This document shows, piece by piece, positions 5,214 through 44,844 of a stretch of 64,000 bases of DNA. Where the stretch lies: the IMG/VR virus record IMGVR_UViG_3300036829_000172, positions 126,195 through 190,194 of that record, one strand, 5' to 3'. Under the pieces are notes generated by a model. The model searched no databases and was not told the origin of the DNA. It saw nothing but the letters and a program-made list of their open reading frames with translations. Numbering within the stretch: position 1 is the first letter of the stretch; each line of letters opens with the position of its first letter. Made by a program: the position numbers and the translations under genes. This DNA is from a virus. Lineage: Duplodnaviria; Heunggongvirae; Uroviricota; Caudoviricetes.

Positions 5214-5591
5214 AGACGCAACTACAACAACCGCCGCGGCGGCGGGTCACGGTGGATGCATCTGCACTACGCCGGCATCTGCAAAGTCTGCGGCGAAAAG
5301 CTGCCCGCAGGCAGCCACGCGTTCTGGGACGTGGCCGCGAAAACCGTCACATGCGACAGCCTGGACTGCGCGGAAGCTGACGGCCTGACCACCAACGAGC
5401 CGCTGACCGGGCCGTGGGACAAACGCAGCGACACCCGCGTGCTGACCGGTCAGCGTATCGGTGCCCCAGCGCCGGTCAGTCACAGCGCACCGACACGCGC
5501 CTACACGGTGCGGTTCAACAGCGGCGCCGAAATGAGCGTGAACGCTCGCGGCCGGTGCGAGGACGCGCCGTGCTGCGGGTGCTGCACCTGA
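5211..5591 (+). CDS. hypothetical Cys-rich protein
   Basis: ORF, ATGA overlap. Confidence 0.6.
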   Translation: MRRNYNNRRGGGSRWMHLHYAGICKVCGEKLPAGSHAFWDVAAKTVTCDSLDCAEADGLTTNEPLTGPWDKRSDTRVLTGQRIGAPAPVSHSAPTRAYTVRFNSGAEMSVNARGRCEDAPCCGCCT

Positions 5592-5657: not shown

Positions 5658-6071
5658 ATGACTGACAGCGTAGAGAGCAACGACGGAACCGACGGGCCAT
5701 CGACATTCGAGAAGGTGGTGCTGGTGACGATCGCCGCCAACACCGCCGTGCTCGTGTGGGGGCTGTGTGATCACCACCACGAAGAACTGATCGACCCGAT
5801 GCACACCGGGTTCCTGGCGTTTTTCGTCGTCGAGCTGCTGGTGCGGCTGCGGGCGGCGGGGTCGCTGCGCGTATTCATGGCCAGCGGCTGGAATGTGTTC
5901 GATTCGGTCGTGATCGGGCTGTCGCTGCTGCCGGTGCTCGGTGTCGGTGTCACCCTGCTGCGGGTGGCGCGCGGGGCGCGTGTCCTGCACAGCCTGCGTC
6001 ACGTCAGCCATCTACGCGCGGCCGGGTTTGTGCGGCTGTTCACCCGGCAGTCAGCAGAAGGAGAGGTCTGA
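5658..6071 (+). CDS. voltage-sensor-domain-like 4-TM protein. S4-like LLRVARGARVLHSLRHVSHLR with Arg at every third position; S2-like FFVVELLVRL; S3-like WNVFDSVVIGLSLLP.
   Basis: translation resembles S1-S4 of voltage-gated ion channels (ion_trans-like) with no pore domain. Confidence 0.6.
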   Translation: MTDSVESNDGTDGPSTFEKVVLVTIAANTAVLVWGLCDHHHEELIDPMHTGFLAFFVVELLVRLRAAGSLRVFMASGWNVFDSVVIGLSLLPVLGVGVTLLRVARGARVLHSLRHVSHLRAAGFVRLFTRQSAEGEV

Positions 6072-39947: not shown

Positions 39948-40047
39948 ACCGTGACCAGGTGCGTTGCCTTATTGGGTGGGCGGCGATGTCGGCCGGTGCG
40001 ATCGAGGCCGGACTGATCCTGCGGTTCTTCTTCCAAGGCAGGTACGG

Positions 40048-40464
40048 ATGAGCGACGACGACCTGTACTCCGATGTCCCCGAATCCGACGACTCGATCAA
40101 ATGGGTCCGCCGGCCCACCAACACCCGCACCATCCGGTCCAGCCACGCCTACAAAACCGCGCACGACCAGTACCGCATCGAATGCATGGTCCGCCGCCAA
40201 CCCGACGGCAGCGTCGGCGACCCCTGCTGCATCTGCACCGACCGGGACGGGGAGCCGCAACGCATCGACTACGGCCTGGCCTACCCGCACCCGCTGTCGT
40301 GGAGCCTTGAACACCACATCTCCGTCAAAGACCACCCCGAACTACTCCTTGAGAAAAACAACTGGGGCAGCGCGCATTTCGCCTGCAACAGCATGAAAGG
40401 CCCCGACGAGCTGATCACCAACTCCGATTTGGGTGTCCCGTCAGAAGATTGGGAAGCGCTGTAG
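40048..40464 (+). CDS. HNH endonuclease (CCICTD...LEHHIS...N...AHFACN)
   Basis: motif; start uncertain (39964 alternative). Confidence 0.6.
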   Translation: MSDDDLYSDVPESDDSIKWVRRPTNTRTIRSSHAYKTAHDQYRIECMVRRQPDGSVGDPCCICTDRDGEPQRIDYGLAYPHPLSWSLEHHISVKDHPELLLEKNNWGSAHFACNSMKGPDELITNSDLGVPSEDWEAL

Positions 40465-41578: not shown

Positions 41579-41681
41579 CAACACCAGGCAGGATCGCGGC
41601 TGCGAAGACCGCGCCGACGCTCACGGCCGCTGGCAAATCAAACACCCCAACCACGGCCAAATCAAACGCCCGGACCCATGG

Positions 41682-41888
41682 TTAGGCAGCCTTCACCCCT
41701 TTCAGGATTTTGGCAACTAACTCACGGGTGACACCCACCTGCTCGGCCAGCGTGGTGTATGAAAATCCGCCGGTCGCATACAACCGGCGGATAGCCGCGT
41801 CACGCTCACGACGGAAATGGCCCGCCAGACGCACATGCTCTTGCGATTGTCTGTGCGCCTCGCGGGCCAACACGGCTAACGGGTCCAC
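41682..41888 (-). CDS. small HTH protein (SYTTLAEQVGVTRELVAKI), downstream of rsr on the same strand
   Basis: ORF. Confidence 0.55.
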   Translation of the reverse strand: MDPLAVLAREAHRQSQEHVRLAGHFRRERDAAIRRLYATGGFSYTTLAEQVGVTRELVAKILKGVKAA

Positions 41889-41900
41889 CGACCACCTGCC

Positions 41901-43715
41901 TCAGATACGGCCAGCCGAGAAATCGGTGATCATCTGCGGCACGTTGGTGTCCATCCCGACGACATGGCAGCAGCCGGCATCCTGAGGATCGATGATCGAA
42001 TAGCCCTTCGGTGTCATCGACACGGCGACCATCTTGGCGTTCGGGTTCATCCGCTCCCGGTACAGGCGCAGCGCTTGGAACGGATGCTGCGACCCGGCCC
42101 ACGACTCCTCGTCGGTGAGCAGCGTGAATGTATCGACCACCTGCCGGTTCTGCAGCGCCCACAGGATCGGTGCCGCGCAGTCGGTGCCGCCGTTGGGCTG
42201 GTGACGCATGTAGGTCAGCACATCGTCGAGGCGTTGCCGCTTGCTGATGCTCAACGGCCACGCGCTGATGTTGAACCCGATGTGGATCACCTCGGGTTCG
42301 GTGCTGCCCATCACCAGCGCGAGCGCCCCGGCCACCTCGAGCGCCTTGAGCGGCAGCCCGCCGGCGGCGTTGAAGCTCATCGAACTCGACACGTCCACTG
42401 CATTCAGGGTGCGCTTGCCGGCAGGTTCGACCGCGTCGAATGAGAGGTAGAAACCGTCGTGCAGCGCGTCGATGACGTTCGGTGTAGGCGGCCAGGTGGA
42501 GTCGCCGCGTGCGCTGCGGCCCGACGCGTAGGTGCGCTGCGCGACGAGCAGGTTGATCGGATGCACCCGGCCCCACTTCAGCCGCTGCACATCGGTCAAC
42601 TGCCCGACAATTGTCCGGCCCGTGTCACCTGTGGTCAGGCCGAGCCGGGTCAGGCGCGGCAACTGCTTGATCAGCGCTGTGGGTGGCACACCCTTGGCGA
42701 GCATCGCTTCCCACACCACCTGCTGGTTGATCAGCCGGTCGGGCAGCATCTCCCACGACAGGTCATACATGTCGATCAGCGCGGCCGCGTCCTGCGCGCT
42801 GGCGTTCTGCACCTGCTCGTACGCGCCGACCAGGTCCGGCAGGACGCCGACCCGCTCCGACGACCACTCAGGAACCGAGTACGTGTTGGCTGGCAGTGGT
42901 CGATGATCGAGGCCGGCGATGAAGTCGGCGAGTGGTTGCCCGCCGTTGACGTTTCGCGGCCTCTTCGTACGCAGGCGCGCGTCAAGCGTGCCGGCGGCTT
43001 CGGGGGTGAGGACCTGAACGCCAGCGGCGCGGTCCCGGTGGGTACGGGAGATCAGGTTGATCCTGCGGCGGTCACGAGGGCCGCCATCGGCCATCGTGTC
43101 GACCACGTAGCGGTACAGATTGTCGCGGACCTGGTCGTCGGGCTGTGGGTGGCTCAGCGCGAGCAGGTCAGCGTGGCGCCAGCCTTCACGCTGCCGGTAC
43201 TTGAGCAGCTGGTAGGTCAGCTTGTCGATGTCCTTGGCGTTGTACCAGGCGCCGATGTAGCGGCGCAGGCCGCGTCCCCACCCGCGGAACTGCTCCACGT
43301 AGGTCGCGAAAATGTTCAGATGGGTGGTGGTGCGGCACACCTTCGGCAGCGCCTGCAACGCATAGACACGCCCCGCTTCGTCGGCCTCAGCGGCGGCGAG
43401 CGCGAGCGCGAAGATTGCCGGGTTCTGCTTGGGTGCGCGTCCAGCCAGCGACACCTCAACGATGGTGTCGACGAGGGTGCGGGCATCGCTGCGCGCCATG
43501 CGGGTCACCACGTCGGCGCTTTGCCGGGCCAGGTCGGGCCCGCTGGTGTAGTAGGTGCCGCCGGTGACGCCGAGGACCAGGAACCGCTTGAGTTGCACGA
43601 GGTCGTCGACGGCGAAGCCGTGGCCGCCGGCGGCGTTGGGTACCGTCGCGTTCCCGGCGGGCTGGGTCTGTGGGGTCGTGCGGGTCGAGAATCCTCGCAG
43701 GGCATCGGCTGTCAT
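41901..43715 (-). CDS. rsr: Ro60/Rsr ortholog: TROVE domain plus C-terminal vWA with MIDAS VDVSSSMS
   Basis: start set at the ATG preceded by caccccacgagaaaggaaacacacc (same conserved leader as + strand genes). ORF 41901..43844 is an N-terminal over-extension. Confidence 0.9.
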   Translation of the reverse strand: MTADALRGFSTRTTPQTQPAGNATVPNAAGGHGFAVDDLVQLKRFLVLGVTGGTYYTSGPDLARQSADVVTRMARSDARTLVDTIVEVSLAGRAPKQNPAIFALALAAAEADEAGRVYALQALPKVCRTTTHLNIFATYVEQFRGWGRGLRRYIGAWYNAKDIDKLTYQLLKYRQREGWRHADLLALSHPQPDDQVRDNLYRYVVDTMADGGPRDRRRINLISRTHRDRAAGVQVLTPEAAGTLDARLRTKRPRNVNGGQPLADFIAGLDHRPLPANTYSVPEWSSERVGVLPDLVGAYEQVQNASAQDAAALIDMYDLSWEMLPDRLINQQVVWEAMLAKGVPPTALIKQLPRLTRLGLTTGDTGRTIVGQLTDVQRLKWGRVHPINLLVAQRTYASGRSARGDSTWPPTPNVIDALHDGFYLSFDAVEPAGKRTLNAVDVSSSMSFNAAGGLPLKALEVAGALALVMGSTEPEVIHIGFNISAWPLSISKRQRLDDVLTYMRHQPNGGTDCAAPILWALQNRQVVDTFTLLTDEESWAGSQHPFQALRLYRERMNPNAKMVAVSMTPKGYSIIDPQDAGCCHVVGMDTNVPQMITDFSAGRI

Positions 43716-43741
43716 GGTGTGTTTCCTTTCTCGTGGGGTGT

Positions 43742-43811
43742 AGGCGAAGTAAGGGGGTTGACCGGCACTTGGTTTCTCCAGCAGAAAAGGTAACCGATCG
43801 AAATCCGGCCC
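43742..43811 (-). ncRNA. Y-RNA-like unit 1 (70 nt): 5' GGGCCGGA..UCGGUUAC, 3' ...ACUUCGCCU
   Basis: tandem unit upstream of rsr, same strand. Confidence 0.45.
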
Positions 43812-43833
43812 ACACCAACACGTTTGACGACGC

Positions 43834-43898
43834 AGGCGAAGCAATGGCCAGCCGGGTTCTAACTAATGGATGGAAGATAACCGACTGATATCCGGCCC
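43834..43898 (-). ncRNA. Y-RNA-like unit 2 (65 nt; 3' end GCUUCGCCU)
   Basis: conserved ends. Confidence 0.45.
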
Positions 43899-43921
43899 GC
43901 GCCGGACAGTTTTGGGGTGAC

Positions 43922-44049
43922 AGGCGAAGTAGACGCTACCGGCGTTTTAGCGCTCTATCTTGAGCTACAGGGCAGCTAGGCCACCCTGGCGGGATTCGAT
44001 ACCCGCAACCTCTCTCTTAGAAGGAGTTAACCGACAGCAAGTCCGGCCC
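43922..44049 (-). ncRNA. Y-RNA-like unit 3 (128 nt) with T-arm-like hairpin GCGGG-UAUCGAAU-CCCGC
   Basis: conserved ends + tRNA-like module. Confidence 0.5.
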
Positions 44050-44072
44050 GTCACCGAAAAGTTGGGGGGTCT

Positions 44073-44215
44073 AGGCGAAGTGTGAGCATCCGGCGCACCG
44101 GTTTCCCGGCAACCGGGCGAACCCGGTTCGGAGTGTTTAGTCCTGTCACTCCATCGGCGTTTTATGTGGTCCACCTGACGACCTGGCGACAGATAACCGA
44201 ACCGCTCGCCGGCCC
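44073..44215 (-). ncRNA. Y-RNA-like unit 4 (143 nt) with UUCG tetraloop hairpin CCGGG-UUCG-CCCGG
   Basis: conserved ends. Confidence 0.5.
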
Positions 44216-44239
44216 AGACCCAACAGTTTTCGGGGGCGC

Positions 44240-44342
44240 AGGCGAAGTAATGGACACCGGTGCCCCGAAGGGCTATCAGCACCGAAGTGCCGACAGGATT
44301 CGAACCTGCAATCACCAAGTTAACCGATCTCGCGTCCGGCCC
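44240..44342 (-). ncRNA. Y-RNA-like unit 5 (103 nt): canonical T-arm GCAGGUUCGAAUCCUGU plus two C(UUCG)G hairpins (GCAC-UUCG-GUGC, GCCC-UUCG-GGGC)
   Basis: tRNA-mimic features as described for bacterial YrlA RNAs; does not fold into a full cloverleaf. Confidence 0.55.
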
Positions 44343-44378
44343 GCGCTCCCTATGTAATTCTCAAAGTCCCAGCGCGTA

Positions 44379-44407
44379 ACTGTAGACGCCGTTCCACAGC
44401 CCGGCAA
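44379..44407 (-). promoter_or_regulatory. candidate minus-strand promoter for the ncRNA array: TTGCCG-N17-TACAGT
   Basis: hexamers read on the minus strand. Confidence 0.35.
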
Positions 44408-44457
44408 GTGTTTTTTGCTGTGGGCGTGTCGCCACGGTAAAGGATAGATCCGCTAGC

Positions 44458-44844
44458 ATGATGATCACTGTGGCGCGTGAGCAGTGGGCTCGGGTCCTCG
44501 ACCCCCAATACCGGGACTCCTACGAGGTATCCGATCAAGGACGCGTGCGCTCAGTCCCCCGGCAAGTCGCCGGCCGCGACGGATCGGTACGCACCCTGCA
44601 AGGCAAAATCCTGTCCCCACGTATCCGCCCCGACGGCACCCGCGCCGTAAATCTGTGGAGCAAAAACCGCTACCGCCAAGTCCCGATCAAAAGGCTCGTC
44701 CTGGAATCGTTCACCGGCCGACGCCAGCCGCAAGGCTATGACGCCGAGAACGTCAACGAAGATCCCGGCGACAACCGGCTGGGCAATCTGCGGTGGAAGC
44801 CGGTCGGTGGGCTGGGGTTGCTGCACCGAAGCCTGGTGCGGTGA
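44458..44844 (+). CDS. HNH homing endonuclease (NUMOD4-like YEVSDQGRVRS + HNH_3-like ENVNEDPGDNRLGNLRW)
   Basis: motifs. Confidence 0.65.
   Translation: MMITVAREQWARVLDPQYRDSYEVSDQGRVRSVPRQVAGRDGSVRTLQGKILSPRIRPDGTRAVNLWSKNRYRQVPIKRLVLESFTGRRQPQGYDAENVNEDPGDNRLGNLRWKPVGGLGLLHRSLVR

What the first reader, a model, noticed from the sequence alone, without database searches (positions are those of the whole stretch)
41682..44410. Ro60/Rsr gene preceded by a five-unit tandem array of Y-RNA-like, tRNA-mimicking ncRNAs
What the sequence shows:
- A 604-aa minus-strand protein with a TROVE domain and a C-terminal vWA/MIDAS motif (VDVSSSMS).
- Immediately upstream on the same strand, five tandem units (65-143 nt) begin with GGGCCGG(A)-N5-8-UCGGUUA and end with (A/G)CUUCGCCU.
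- The units are separated by conserved 22-24 nt spacers (CCCC(C)-AAAACUG-like), which looks like processing sites in one precursor.
- Units 3-5 carry tRNA T-arm mimics (unit 5 is a perfect GCAGG-UUCGAAU-CCUGU) and extra-stable C(UUCG)G tetraloop hairpins.
- None folds into a complete cloverleaf.
- A TTGCCG-N17-TACAGT promoter-like element lies just upstream of the array.

Established knowledge: bacterial Ro60 orthologs are usually encoded next to Y RNAs, including the tRNA-like YrlA class, which tether Ro to exoribonucleases.

Inference: this phage carries its own Ro RNP module with a multi-copy processed Y-RNA operon, plus an HTH gene downstream. A five-unit array is unusual.
Basis: partly seen in the sequence, partly recalled or inferred. 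Interest (0 to 1): 0.85.

Follow-up and report, generated by a model that had tools for sequence, protein, structure and literature searches.

The report
Phage Ro60 gene with five Y RNAs
A mycobacteriophage-like genome carries a Ro60 RNA-binding protein gene preceded by five different Y RNA genes in a row, a larger version of the two-RNA YrlA/YrlB-Rsr operon already described in Mycobacterium smegmatis.

Summary
Window 41901-43715 (-) encodes a 604-aa Ro60 (TROVE + Ro60 vWA; E 3e-98 to D. radiodurans Rsr). Upstream on the same strand lie exactly five units (44346-43737).

Each unit has a closing stem, a bulged C inside GGGC-C-GGA, a second stem (NNNUCGG/CCGGNNN) and a different apical module. 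The outer stems covary among the five units and across 76 units from 21 loci.

Part of each "spacer" belongs to the closing stems, so the true linkers are 11-14 nt and A-rich (AAC). Only Y1 and Y3 mimic tRNA arms; Y2 is a long unit without one, and Y4 and Y5 are short hairpins.

The same core occurs in the chromosomal YrlA/YrlB pair of a Mycolicibacterium species. Targets of the published M. smegmatis probes carry the same UUACC, UAUC and CACACGCCC motifs.

Arrays are the rule. The 5' motif occurs 1-4 times upstream of Ro60 in 71 actinobacterial loci and 0-10 times in 57 viral loci. Five is therefore high but not unique.

This is a new, enlarged member of a known kind. Expression, processing and Ro60 binding remain untested.

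The parts
44379..44407 (-). Promoter-like element TTGCCG-N17-TACAGT upstream of the array
   Evidence: Unique in the window. It falls below the strict sigma-70 scan. TTGCxx-N17-TACAGT, or a TACAGT/TATAGT -10 hexamer, lies just 5' of the first unit in L134, L153, L183 and L158. It is conserved in L121 and L122. Function is inferred.
44349..44359 (-). Leader motif AAUUACAUAGG, 2 nt 5' of Y1
   Evidence: Occurs once in the window. An ACAUAG-type motif also precedes units in L009 and prophiGD43A-5. Its role is unexplained; it may be a processing signal.
44236..44346 (-). Y1, 111 nt. Closing stem GCGCGGGC/GCCUGCGC with bulged C, and a T-arm mimic GCAGG-UUCGAAU-CCUGU at 44309-44293. Two C(UUCG)G hairpins follow.
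   Evidence: Own model R1 scores 43.9 bits, E=8e-7 over the whole window. Rfam YrlA scores 20.6 bits over the full model length. Fold z = -2.44 on the minus strand against -0.38 on the plus strand.
44222..44235 (-). Linker 1, CCCCGAAAACUGUU
   Evidence: Sequence. It is too short for a promoter. AAC is enriched in such linkers across loci (22 of 29 against 12.2 in shuffles).
44067..44221 (-). Y2, 155 nt. Closing stem GGGUCUGGGC/GCCUAGACCC and a roughly 100-nt apical module with no tRNA-like arm.
   Evidence: Motifs and closure. The consensus fold with L121 and L122 keeps both core stems, and the module hairpins are replaced but retained in L121. Fold z = -2.94. R1 missed it because of the long insert.
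44056..44066 (-). Linker 2, CCCAACUUUUC
   Evidence: Sequence. The M. frederiksbergense YrlA-YrlB linker contains the same CCCAACUUUU.
43916..44055 (-). Y3, 140 nt, YrlA-type. T arm at 44006-43989, a middle stem, and a D arm GUAGCUCAAGAUAGAGC at 43968-43952.
   Evidence: Rfam YrlA scores 29.9 bits, E=3e-4. Compensatory changes occur in the T stem and middle stem in L121 and L122. Fold z = -4.38.
43905..43915 (-). Linker 3, CCAAAACUGUC
43828..43904 (-). Y4, 77 nt, short unit
   Evidence: R1 scores 46.4 bits, E=2e-7. Fold z = -2.15 against +0.45 on the plus strand.
43817..43827 (-). Linker 4, UCAAACGUGUU
43737..43816 (-). Y5, 80 nt, short unit next to the Ro60 ribosome-binding site
   Evidence: R1 scores 41.0 bits, E=3e-6. 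Fold z = -1.86 against +0.06 on the plus strand.
41901..43715 (-). Ro60/Rsr orthologue, 604 aa. RBS GAAAGGA at 43730-43724. Carries a roughly 50-aa Arg-rich insertion at about residues 229-277.
   Evidence: Pfam TROVE and vWA_Ro60, PDB 2NVO and 1YVP, PHROG 850. The indel against P0003 is shown.
41682..41888 (-). 68-aa ORF starting 12 nt after the Ro60 stop codon; possible HTH protein
   Evidence: The same 68-aa gene follows Ro60 in L121, L122, L123 and L275. HTH support from PHROGs is weak (E 0.003-0.007) and Pfam finds nothing.
44458..44844 (+). Divergently oriented NUMOD4/HNH homing-endonuclease gene flanking the module
   Evidence: Pfam NUMOD4 2e-11 and HNH_3. PHROG HNH endonuclease 8e-28. 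The same neighbour is present in L121 and L122.

Best explanation
The locus is a phage-borne Ro60-Y RNA operon.

Proposed transcription and processing (inferred):
- One promoter (about 44407-44379) drives a minus-strand transcript carrying five Y RNA genes, then the Ro60 mRNA and a small 68-aa gene.
- The five RNAs are separated by 11-14 nt single-stranded, A-rich linkers of AAC(U/G) type.
- These linkers are most likely cut by a host endonuclease. Mycobacterial RNase E prefers RR|CNU, as for M. smegmatis YrlA/YrlB, which come from one precursor.

RNA architecture (shown by sequence and covariation):
- Each RNA folds into a long terminal helix that presents GGGC-C(bulge)-GGA, the counterpart of the metazoan GGUCCGA and bacterial GNCGAA Ro60-binding motif.
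- A second helix (NNNUCGG/CCGGNNN) follows, and then a unit-specific apical module.

Proposed function (inferred from D. radiodurans, Salmonella and Thermus phage phiLo):
- The phage Ro60 ring binds the common helix.
- The five different modules act as alternative gates or tethers linking Ro60 to different partners. The modules are one T-arm-plus-hairpins unit, one long non-tRNA-like unit, one YrlA-type unit with T and D arms, and two short hairpins.
- Likely partners are host PNPase or other exoribonucleases and tRNA-recognising enzymes, re-directing structured-RNA decay or quality control during infection.
For: Protein:
- The protein is Ro60, with its MIDAS residues conserved.

The five units in the window:
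- All three motifs occur five times, on one strand, and nowhere else in 64 kb.
- All five MFE folds close the same stem with the same bulged C.
- Stability is strand-asymmetric: z = -1.9 to -4.4 on the minus strand. On the plus strand, Y1, Y4 and Y5 give -0.38, +0.45 and +0.06, and only Y3 reaches -2.38; Y2 was not folded there.

Covariation across 76 distinct units from 21 loci:
- Covariation score 0.596 against 0.230 in shuffles (0 of 500 shuffles reach it). Slid registers give 0.10-0.16.
- 6 of 8 pairs in each helix show double changes.
- Non-circular control: 61 of 99 motif hits close both helices, against 2.1% with shuffled downstream sequence.

Model hits:
- Own covariance model finds Y4, Y1 and Y5 at E = 2e-7 to 3e-6 and nothing else in the window.
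- Rfam YrlA hits Y3 and Y1 in the score range of known phage YrlAs.

Conservation:
- The array is conserved with compensatory changes in two relatives with the same synteny, L121 and L122.

Linkage to Ro60:
- The 5' motif is tied to Ro60. There are 318 hits within 2.5 kb upstream on the same strand, against 4 downstream and 19 on the opposite strand in 128 loci.
- Units of one array share an array-specific 3' Ro-site motif: identity 0.82 within arrays against 0.57 between. Their stems are as diverged within arrays as between.

Link to validated RNAs:
- The chromosomal M. frederiksbergense YrlA/YrlB pair has the same core and a CCCAACUUUU linker.
- The RNA targets of the published M. smegmatis probes carry the same UUACC, UAUC and CACACGCCC motifs. 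The YrlA-5' and YrlA-3' targets have near matches in fetched loci; the YrlB target has none.
- Those RNAs co-precipitate with Rsr and derive from a single precursor (PMC4201824).

Linkers and function:
- Linkers are too short for promoters, and AAC is enriched in them. RR|CNU is the mycobacterial RNase E preference (PMC10641625).
- Phage Ro60 + Yrl + host PNPase complexes were shown for phiLo (PMC12135203).
Against: - There is no expression, end-mapping or binding data for this locus.
- No unit reaches the Rfam YrlA gathering score.
- R1 missed Y2 and Y3, and the units used to build it were selected for pairing.
- The promoter fails a strict sigma-70 scan, and the host is unknown.
- The inner GGA/UUC pairs are kept in only about half of units across loci (54% of cells).
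- Only two of the four linkers match RR|CNU fully.
- The effector partners of the non-tRNA-like modules are unknown.
Confidence: 0.78

Rival explanations
1. The array is mainly a cis-acting 5' leader of the Ro60 mRNA. Ro60 binds the repeated sites in its own untranslated region to autoregulate translation or stability, and the units are not released as stable trans-acting RNAs.
For: The units lie between the only promoter-like element and the Ro60 RBS. No terminator or promoter lies between them. Y5 ends 21 nt before the ATG.
Against: The homologous M. smegmatis RNAs accumulate as discrete Rsr-bound species processed from the precursor (PMC4201824). The five apical modules differ, are conserved, and two mimic tRNA arms, which a plain operator array would not need. 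In other phages, units are separated by long gaps or follow tRNA clusters.
Confidence: 0.1
2. Only the YrlA-like unit or units (Y3, perhaps Y1) are functional Y RNAs. The other units are decaying tandem duplicates.
For: Only Y3 and Y1 hit Rfam YrlA. Y2, Y4 and Y5 have no recognisable effector module.
Against: All five keep both core helices through different, compensating sequences and the intact Ro-site motif. All five are retained in L121 and L122. Short units next to Ro60 recur in most arrays and correspond to the validated YrlB class. Stems within an array are as diverged as between arrays while the Ro-site stays homogeneous.
Confidence: 0.08
3. The units are degenerate tRNA genes or pseudogenes on either strand, or DNA-level repeats such as iterons or protein-binding sites, unrelated to Ro60.
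For: T-arm and D-arm-like segments are present. In other phages the arrays abut tRNA clusters.
Against: ARAGORN finds no tRNA in the window, and no Rfam tRNA hit appears even at E<=10. The T-loop sequence is on the Ro60 strand. G-U-dependent strand asymmetry of folding and compensatory base changes indicate selection on RNA. The motif is tied in strand and position to Ro60 in 128 loci.
Confidence: 0.02

Closest known systems
Mycobacterium smegmatis YrlA/YrlB-Rsr operon (Chen et al. 2014, PMC4201824)
   Same: The Y RNAs lie directly 5' of rsr on the same strand and are cut from one precursor. One has T and D arm mimics and one is shorter. The core motifs match: GRGCCGGA...UCGGUUAYC...CCGG...3' Ro-site strand. 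They are seen in the M. frederiksbergense orthologous locus and in the published probe targets. The linker also matches (CCCAACUUUU).
   Different: Five units instead of two, and carried by a phage. The 3' strand motif is ACUUCGCCU rather than CACACGCCC, which adds GGA/UUC pairs above the bulge. One unit (Y2) has a roughly 100-nt module with no counterpart that I could identify.
Ro + YrlA-like RNA of cluster C mycobacteriophages (ET08, Bxz1-like, Myrna, Tonenili)
   Same: A phage-encoded Ro60 with a YrlA-like RNA upstream (PMC4201824). Rfam scores are similarly sub-threshold. By my motif scan, Tonenili and a C1 phage carry three units arranged short-YrlA-short.
   Different: Ro60 shows only about 50% amino-acid identity in the best aligned segment to Tonenili and a C1-like phage. 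The array here has five units. Those phage genomes annotate hypothetical ORFs, not RNAs, over the units.
Thermus phage phiLo phiRo60 with Yrl1/Yrl2 (PMC12135203)
   Same: A phage Ro60 with more than one Y-like RNA encoded upstream. Binding to Ro60 and ternary complexes with host PNPase were shown experimentally.
   Different: The protein is very distant (E=4.5e-4 over the N-terminal part only). There are two RNAs and a different motif (CGAA).
Deinococcus radiodurans Rsr with Yrn1/Yrn2 (four small RNAs upstream of rsr)
   Same: Several small RNAs lie upstream of rsr, and both strands of the Ro-binding bulged helix are recognisable. The Y RNA tethers Rsr to PNPase (PMC4201824). Closest solved protein: 2NVO, E=3e-98.
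   Different: A separate RNA lineage with independent genes, stress-induced and chromosomal.
Metazoan Y RNAs (hY1, hY3, hY4, hY5; Rfam RF00019)
   Same: A terminal helix with a bulged C in GGUC-C-GA / UU-GACU, compared with GGGC-C-GGA / UUC-GCCU here. There are several paralogues with different loops. The comparison with the human sequences is from my own knowledge.
   Different: No Rfam Y_RNA hit. These are Pol III genes with no tRNA-like module.

Membership tests
Ro60/Rsr (TROVE) protein family | TROVE/HEAT-repeat ring domain followed by a vWA domain | tested here: met
   Pfam TROVE 2e-37 and vWA_Ro60 2e-48, both above their cut-offs. PDB 2NVO 3e-98 and 1YVP 7e-89.
Ro60/Rsr (TROVE) protein family | MIDAS motif DxSxS...T...D in the vWA domain | tested here: met
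   D441-V-S443-S-S445 is present. D441, S443, S445, T511, D512 and D535 are invariant in the 22-sequence alignment A2.
Bacterial Y RNA (Ro60-associated ncRNA) | Encoded within about 2 kb of the Ro60 gene on the same strand | tested here: met
   All five units lie 22-631 nt 5' of the ATG on the minus strand. The same linkage holds in 128 loci.
Bacterial Y RNA (Ro60-associated ncRNA) | 5' and 3' ends pair into a helix whose 5' strand carries the Ro60-binding motif (GGUCCGA / GNCGAA-like) with a bulge | tested here: met
   GGGC-C-GG(A) sits in a closing helix of 8-10 bp in all five units. Covariation supports the helix. Related units use GGCCGA(A), which fits GNCGAA exactly.
Bacterial Y RNA (Ro60-associated ncRNA) | Stable small RNA physically bound by Ro60 | not testable with these tools
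   Needs RIP, EMSA or Northern blots. Support is indirect only: the same core occurs in the M. smegmatis-type YrlA/YrlB.
YrlA (Rfam RF02553) | Score at or above the Rfam gathering threshold (69 bits) | tested here: not met
   Y3 scores 29.9 bits and Y1 20.6 bits. Published phage YrlAs also score only 31-42 bits, so the threshold is uninformative for this clade.
YrlA (Rfam RF02553) | tRNA-like module: T arm, then acceptor-like stem, then D arm | tested here: met
   Met for Y3 only: GCGGG-UAUCGAAU-CCCGC, a 9-bp middle stem, and GUAGCUCAAGAUAGAGC. Y1 has a T arm, but a UUCG hairpin replaces the D arm. Y2, Y4 and Y5 lack the module.
YrlB-type short Y RNA | Ro-site helix plus a short hairpin module, encoded between YrlA and rsr | tested here: inconclusive
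   Y4 and Y5 (77 and 80 nt) sit between Y3 and Ro60 and share the core with the M. frederiksbergense YrlB-like unit. There is no curated model for YrlB. M. smegmatis YrlB has a T arm, which Y4 and Y5 lack.
tRNA | Complete cloverleaf with anticodon arm and acceptor stem | tested here: not met
   ARAGORN finds 0 genes in the window. No Rfam tRNA match appears at E<=10 in 43600-44600.

The most novel reading that the evidence does not exclude
Actinobacteriophages may carry expandable 'adaptor libraries'. These would be polycistronic arrays of up to ten Y RNAs that share one Ro60-docking helix tuned to the cognate phage Ro60, seen as an array-specific 3' motif. Each RNA would display a different module. 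In several phages the array is fused to the end of the phage tRNA operon, and one unit encloses an almost complete tRNA. On this reading the five RNAs here would direct one Ro60 ring to several distinct host targets: PNPase, other RNases, and tRNA-modifying or tRNA-cleaving defence enzymes. That would make the module a multi-pronged RNA-level takeover or counter-defence device rather than a simple copy of the host Rsr system.
Probability: 0.2. Interest if true: 0.7.

Novelty: new member of a known kind. Interest (0 to 1): 0.42.

Why it matters
Ro60-Y RNA particles are studied as RNA quality-control machines and as lupus autoantigens. What the variable part of a Y RNA recruits is still largely open in bacteria.

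This locus places five different modules on one common Ro60-docking scaffold, in a single compact operon that could be cloned as one piece. It is a convenient system for asking which partners each module brings to Ro60.

The survey done here also has practical value:
- Multi-unit arrays are the norm next to actinobacterial and actinophage Ro60 genes.
- They are unannotated or mis-annotated in public phage genomes, as hypothetical ORFs or as a 'tRNA-Thr'.
- The Rfam YrlA model misses most units, so a core model covering the two helices and the Ro site would improve annotation.

The specific finding is nevertheless an enlarged example of the published YrlA/YrlB-Rsr arrangement, not a new principle.

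Tried and rejected
Searches that found nothing or could not be completed:
- A megablast of 41600-44700 against the phage collection found nothing.
- Single-protein scans of viral and genome contigs found no relative. An alignment-based query was needed.
- A whole-window Rfam scan at gathering thresholds found nothing.
- The strict sigma-70 scan found no promoter. Its four 'terminators' are pieces of the Y RNA helices.
- The two Wolin-lab reviews and the supplement of the 2014 paper are not held. I therefore could not check whether arrays of more than two units have been tabulated there.
- Literature searches for tandem or multi-copy bacterial or phage Y RNAs returned only the two-RNA cases and a Listeria phage with three abundant RNAs upstream of an Rsr-like gene.

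Model limits:
- Covariance model R1, built from cores with the apical module excised, recovers Y1, Y4 and Y5 only.
- With filters off it does worse, because the long inserts exceed the model's window.
- It is therefore not a complete detector.

Ideas considered and dropped:
- An alternative local hairpin between GGCCGG and UCGGUU (seen). Units with UCAG pair with CUGG in the second helix, so compensation supports that helix and not the local hairpin.
- Per-unit promoters. The linkers are only 11-14 nt.
- Nearby RNA-repair genes such as RtcB. Pfam and PHROG scans of neighbouring ORFs found only HNH endonucleases, a methyltransferase, DUF5131 and unknowns.

Full report
**1. What is in the sequence**

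The minus strand of 41901-43715 encodes a 604-aa protein that starts at an ATG preceded by GAAAGGA.
- It matches Pfam TROVE (E=2e-37) and the Ro60 vWA domain (E=2e-48).
- It matches PHROG 850 'RNA-binding protein'.
- It matches the solved structures of D. radiodurans Rsr (2NVO, 3e-98) and Xenopus Ro60 (1YVP, 7e-89).
- The MIDAS residues in VDVSSSMS are invariant among 22 homologues.

Upstream on the same strand, GGGCCGG, TCGGTTA and CTTCGCCT each occur exactly five times in register.
- The joint pattern is expected zero times by chance.
- A relaxed form of the 5' motif hits nowhere else in the 64 kb on either strand.
- ARAGORN finds no tRNA in the window.

**2. Anatomy of a unit**

The pairs are GCGC/GCGC, GGGUCU/AGACCC, GGUGAC/GUCACC, CGGCGC/GCGUCG and GGUGU/ACACC.

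| Unit | Coordinates (minus strand) | Length |
|---|---|---|
| Y1 | 44346-44236 | 111 nt |
| Y2 | 44221-44067 | 155 nt |
| Y3 | 44055-43916 | 140 nt |
| Y4 | 43904-43828 | 77 nt |
| Y5 | 43816-43737 | 80 nt |

The units are joined by linkers of 14, 11, 11 and 11 nt.

Every unit has the same plan:
- A closing helix ends in GGGC/GCCU.
- A bulged C follows, and GGA pairs with UUC.
- An internal loop follows.
- A second helix is formed by NNNUCGG and CCGGNNN.
- UUAYC then leads into a module that differs in each unit.

The closing-helix arrangement mirrors the metazoan Ro-binding helix GGUC-C-GA/UU-GACU. It overlaps the bacterial GNCGAA motif described by Chen et al..

The modules are:
- **Y1:** a perfect T arm (44309-44293) plus two UUCG hairpins.
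- **Y2:** a roughly 100-nt module without tRNA features.
- **Y3:** a T arm, a middle stem and a D arm.
- **Y4 and Y5:** small hairpins.

Predicted stability is higher than shuffles on the minus strand (z = -1.9 to -4.4). On the plus strand, Y1, Y4 and Y5 give -0.38, +0.45 and +0.06. Only Y3 reaches -2.38 there, and Y2 was not folded on that strand.

**3. Comparative evidence**

The exact protein lies on a 195-kb metagenomic contig. Two relatives (91% and 80% protein identity; L121 and L122) have the same gene order: HNH endonuclease, five units, Ro60, 68-aa ORF.

Their arrays align unit for unit, with compensatory changes:
- The T stem changes from GCGGG/CCCGC to GUGGG/CCCAC.
- The middle stem changes from CAGGG..CCCUG to CAGCC-UUCG-GGCUG.
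- Hairpins in Y2 are replaced but retained.

A pattern scan and an alignment-based scan gave 65 viral and 80 bacterial Ro60 loci. From these, the window and its relatives, I extracted 76 distinct units and aligned their cores (A3).

On the two helices:
- The covariation score is 0.596 against 0.230 in shuffles (0 of 500 shuffles reach it).
- Slid registers give 0.10-0.16.
- 6 of 8 pairs in each helix show double substitutions.

These units were chosen for pairing, so I ran a non-circular control. 61 of 99 motif hits close both helices, against 2.1% when the downstream sequence is shuffled.

A covariance model of the core finds Y4, Y1 and Y5 at E = 2e-7 to 3e-6 and nothing else in the window. 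It misses Y2 and Y3 because of their long inserts.

**4. Link to validated Y RNAs**

Rfam YrlA hits Y3 (29.9 bits) and Y1 (20.6 bits), below the cut-off of 69. The published phage YrlAs also fall below it. ET08 scores 37.4, Cashline 42.2, Sparky 36.6 and Tonenili 31.4.

The RNA targets of the M. smegmatis Northern probes in Chen et al. read UUACCACUUCUAAUGG..., UAUCUGGCGAC... and ...CACACGCCCACAUC. These are the conserved UUAYC entry and the 3' Ro-site strand of my core. The YrlA-5' and YrlA-3' targets have near matches in the fetched loci; the YrlB target has none.

The chromosomal rsr locus of Mycolicibacterium frederiksbergense shows two units with exactly this core, joined by a CCCAACUUUU-containing linker. 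In M. smegmatis these two RNAs co-precipitate with Rsr and come from one precursor. The window therefore holds an expanded version of that operon.

**5. How it probably works**

The only promoter-like element is TTGCCG-N17-TACAGT.
- It fails a strict consensus scan.
- TTGCxx-N17-TACAGT, or a TACAGT/TATAGT -10 hexamer, sits just before the first unit in four unrelated loci.

The linkers are too short for promoters.
- Across loci they are A-rich, and AAC is enriched in them (22 of 29 against 12.2 in shuffles).
- Mycobacterial RNase E cuts at RR|CNU in single-stranded RNA.
- I therefore infer one precursor cut in the linkers, with the Ro60 mRNA as its 3' part.

By analogy with D. radiodurans, Salmonella and phage phiLo, Ro60 would bind the common helix. 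The modules would then tether it to PNPase or tRNA-recognising proteins.

A further hint that all units serve the cognate Ro60 comes from the 3' Ro-site strand:
- It is homogeneous within an array (identity 0.82) but differs between arrays (0.57).
- The stems are as diverged within arrays as between them.

**6. How unusual is five?**

I counted the 5' motif within 2.5 kb upstream of Ro60. The viral loci were not deduplicated.

| Motif hits | 0 | 1 | 2 | 3 | 4 | 5 | 10 |
|---|---|---|---|---|---|---|---|
| 57 viral loci | 2 | 8 | 16 | 16 | 7 | 7 | 1 |
| 71 bacterial loci | 1 | 16 | 30 | 15 | 9 | 0 | 0 |

Background is 4 hits downstream and 19 on the other strand, against 318 upstream.

- Five-, six- and ten-unit arrays occur in other viral contigs (L001, L009, L040/L186). 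Six units occur in the published M. abscessus prophage prophiGD43A-5.
- Cluster C phages have three units.
- I found no paper describing more than two validated RNAs per bacterial or phage locus. A Listeria phage study suspects three.

**7. Context**

Neighbouring genes hit phage families: a ParB-like protein, a tail protein, HNH endonucleases and an AAA-ATPase. The ATPase is 47% identical to cluster O mycobacteriophages. GC content is 60-67%. The 68-aa ORF after Ro60 is syntenic in all close relatives, but its HTH assignment is weak.

**8. Verdict**

The locus is a new, enlarged member of the known mycobacterial-type Ro60-YrlA/YrlB system.

Noticed in passing
L001:8914-13090 (-); L183:257-3046 (+); L161 (Sparky):2500-3300 (+): In other phage contigs the Y RNA array directly continues the phage tRNA cluster on the same strand, followed by Ro60. 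L001 has 15 tRNAs and L183 has 13 immediately upstream. The window itself has no tRNA gene.
   Followed up: partly
L186:2913-3043 (= L040:775-908 on the minus strand): One unit of a ten-unit array encloses an almost complete tRNA between its Ro-site helices. Rfam tRNA scores 47 bits, and ARAGORN reports a 'tRNA-???' with a two-base anticodon. This fits the proposal that YrlA arose from tRNA transcripts (10.1101/312249).
   Followed up: partly
L126 (Mycobacterium phage prophiGD43A-5, MW584167.1):3740-4610 (-): This published prophage has six Y-like units upstream of its Ro gene, with a variant Ro-site GA(A/G)C-A-GGA in which the bulge is an A. Its annotated tRNA-Thr(tgt) lies inside one of the units, so it is probably a mis-annotation.
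   Followed up: partly
window 44349-44359 (-); L009:5296-5303, 5427-5436, 5672-5681: An AAUUACAUAG(G)-type motif sits just 5' of Y1 and of several units in L009 and prophiGD43A-5. It is unique in the window. Its role, whether a leader-processing signal or something else, is unexplained.
   Followed up: partly
window 42885-43031 (-), Ro60 residues about 229-277: This Ro60 carries a roughly 50-aa Arg-rich insertion (…AAGVQVLTPEAAGTLDARLRTKRPRNVNGGQPLADFIAGLDHRPLPANT…). It is absent from the 80%-identical homologue P0003 and from Rsr (535 aa).
   Followed up: partly
A3 columns 46-55 (3' internal loop and Ro-site 3' strand): Units of one array share an array-specific 3' motif: ACUUCGCC here, CACAYGCC, CUAGCCC, UUUGUC or UUAUGCUC elsewhere. 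Identity is 0.82 within arrays against 0.57 between, although their stems are fully diverged. This may reflect co-evolution with the cognate Ro60.
   Followed up: partly
L127/L128 (Tonenili, ET08) upstream of Ro: Small 'hypothetical protein' ORFs annotated between Ro and the next gene in cluster C phages overlap the Y RNA units or the YrlA hit. ET08 gp219 at L128:3080-3253 is one example.
   Followed up: no
window 39964-40464 (+) and 44458-44844 (+): Two HNH-type endonuclease genes lie nearby on the opposite strand. The NUMOD4/HNH gene abuts the promoter side. The other lies about 1.2 kb beyond the 68-aa ORF, with a methyltransferase gene in between. The minus-strand Ro60 cassette sits in an otherwise mostly plus-strand region, so it may be a mobile insertion.
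   Followed up: no
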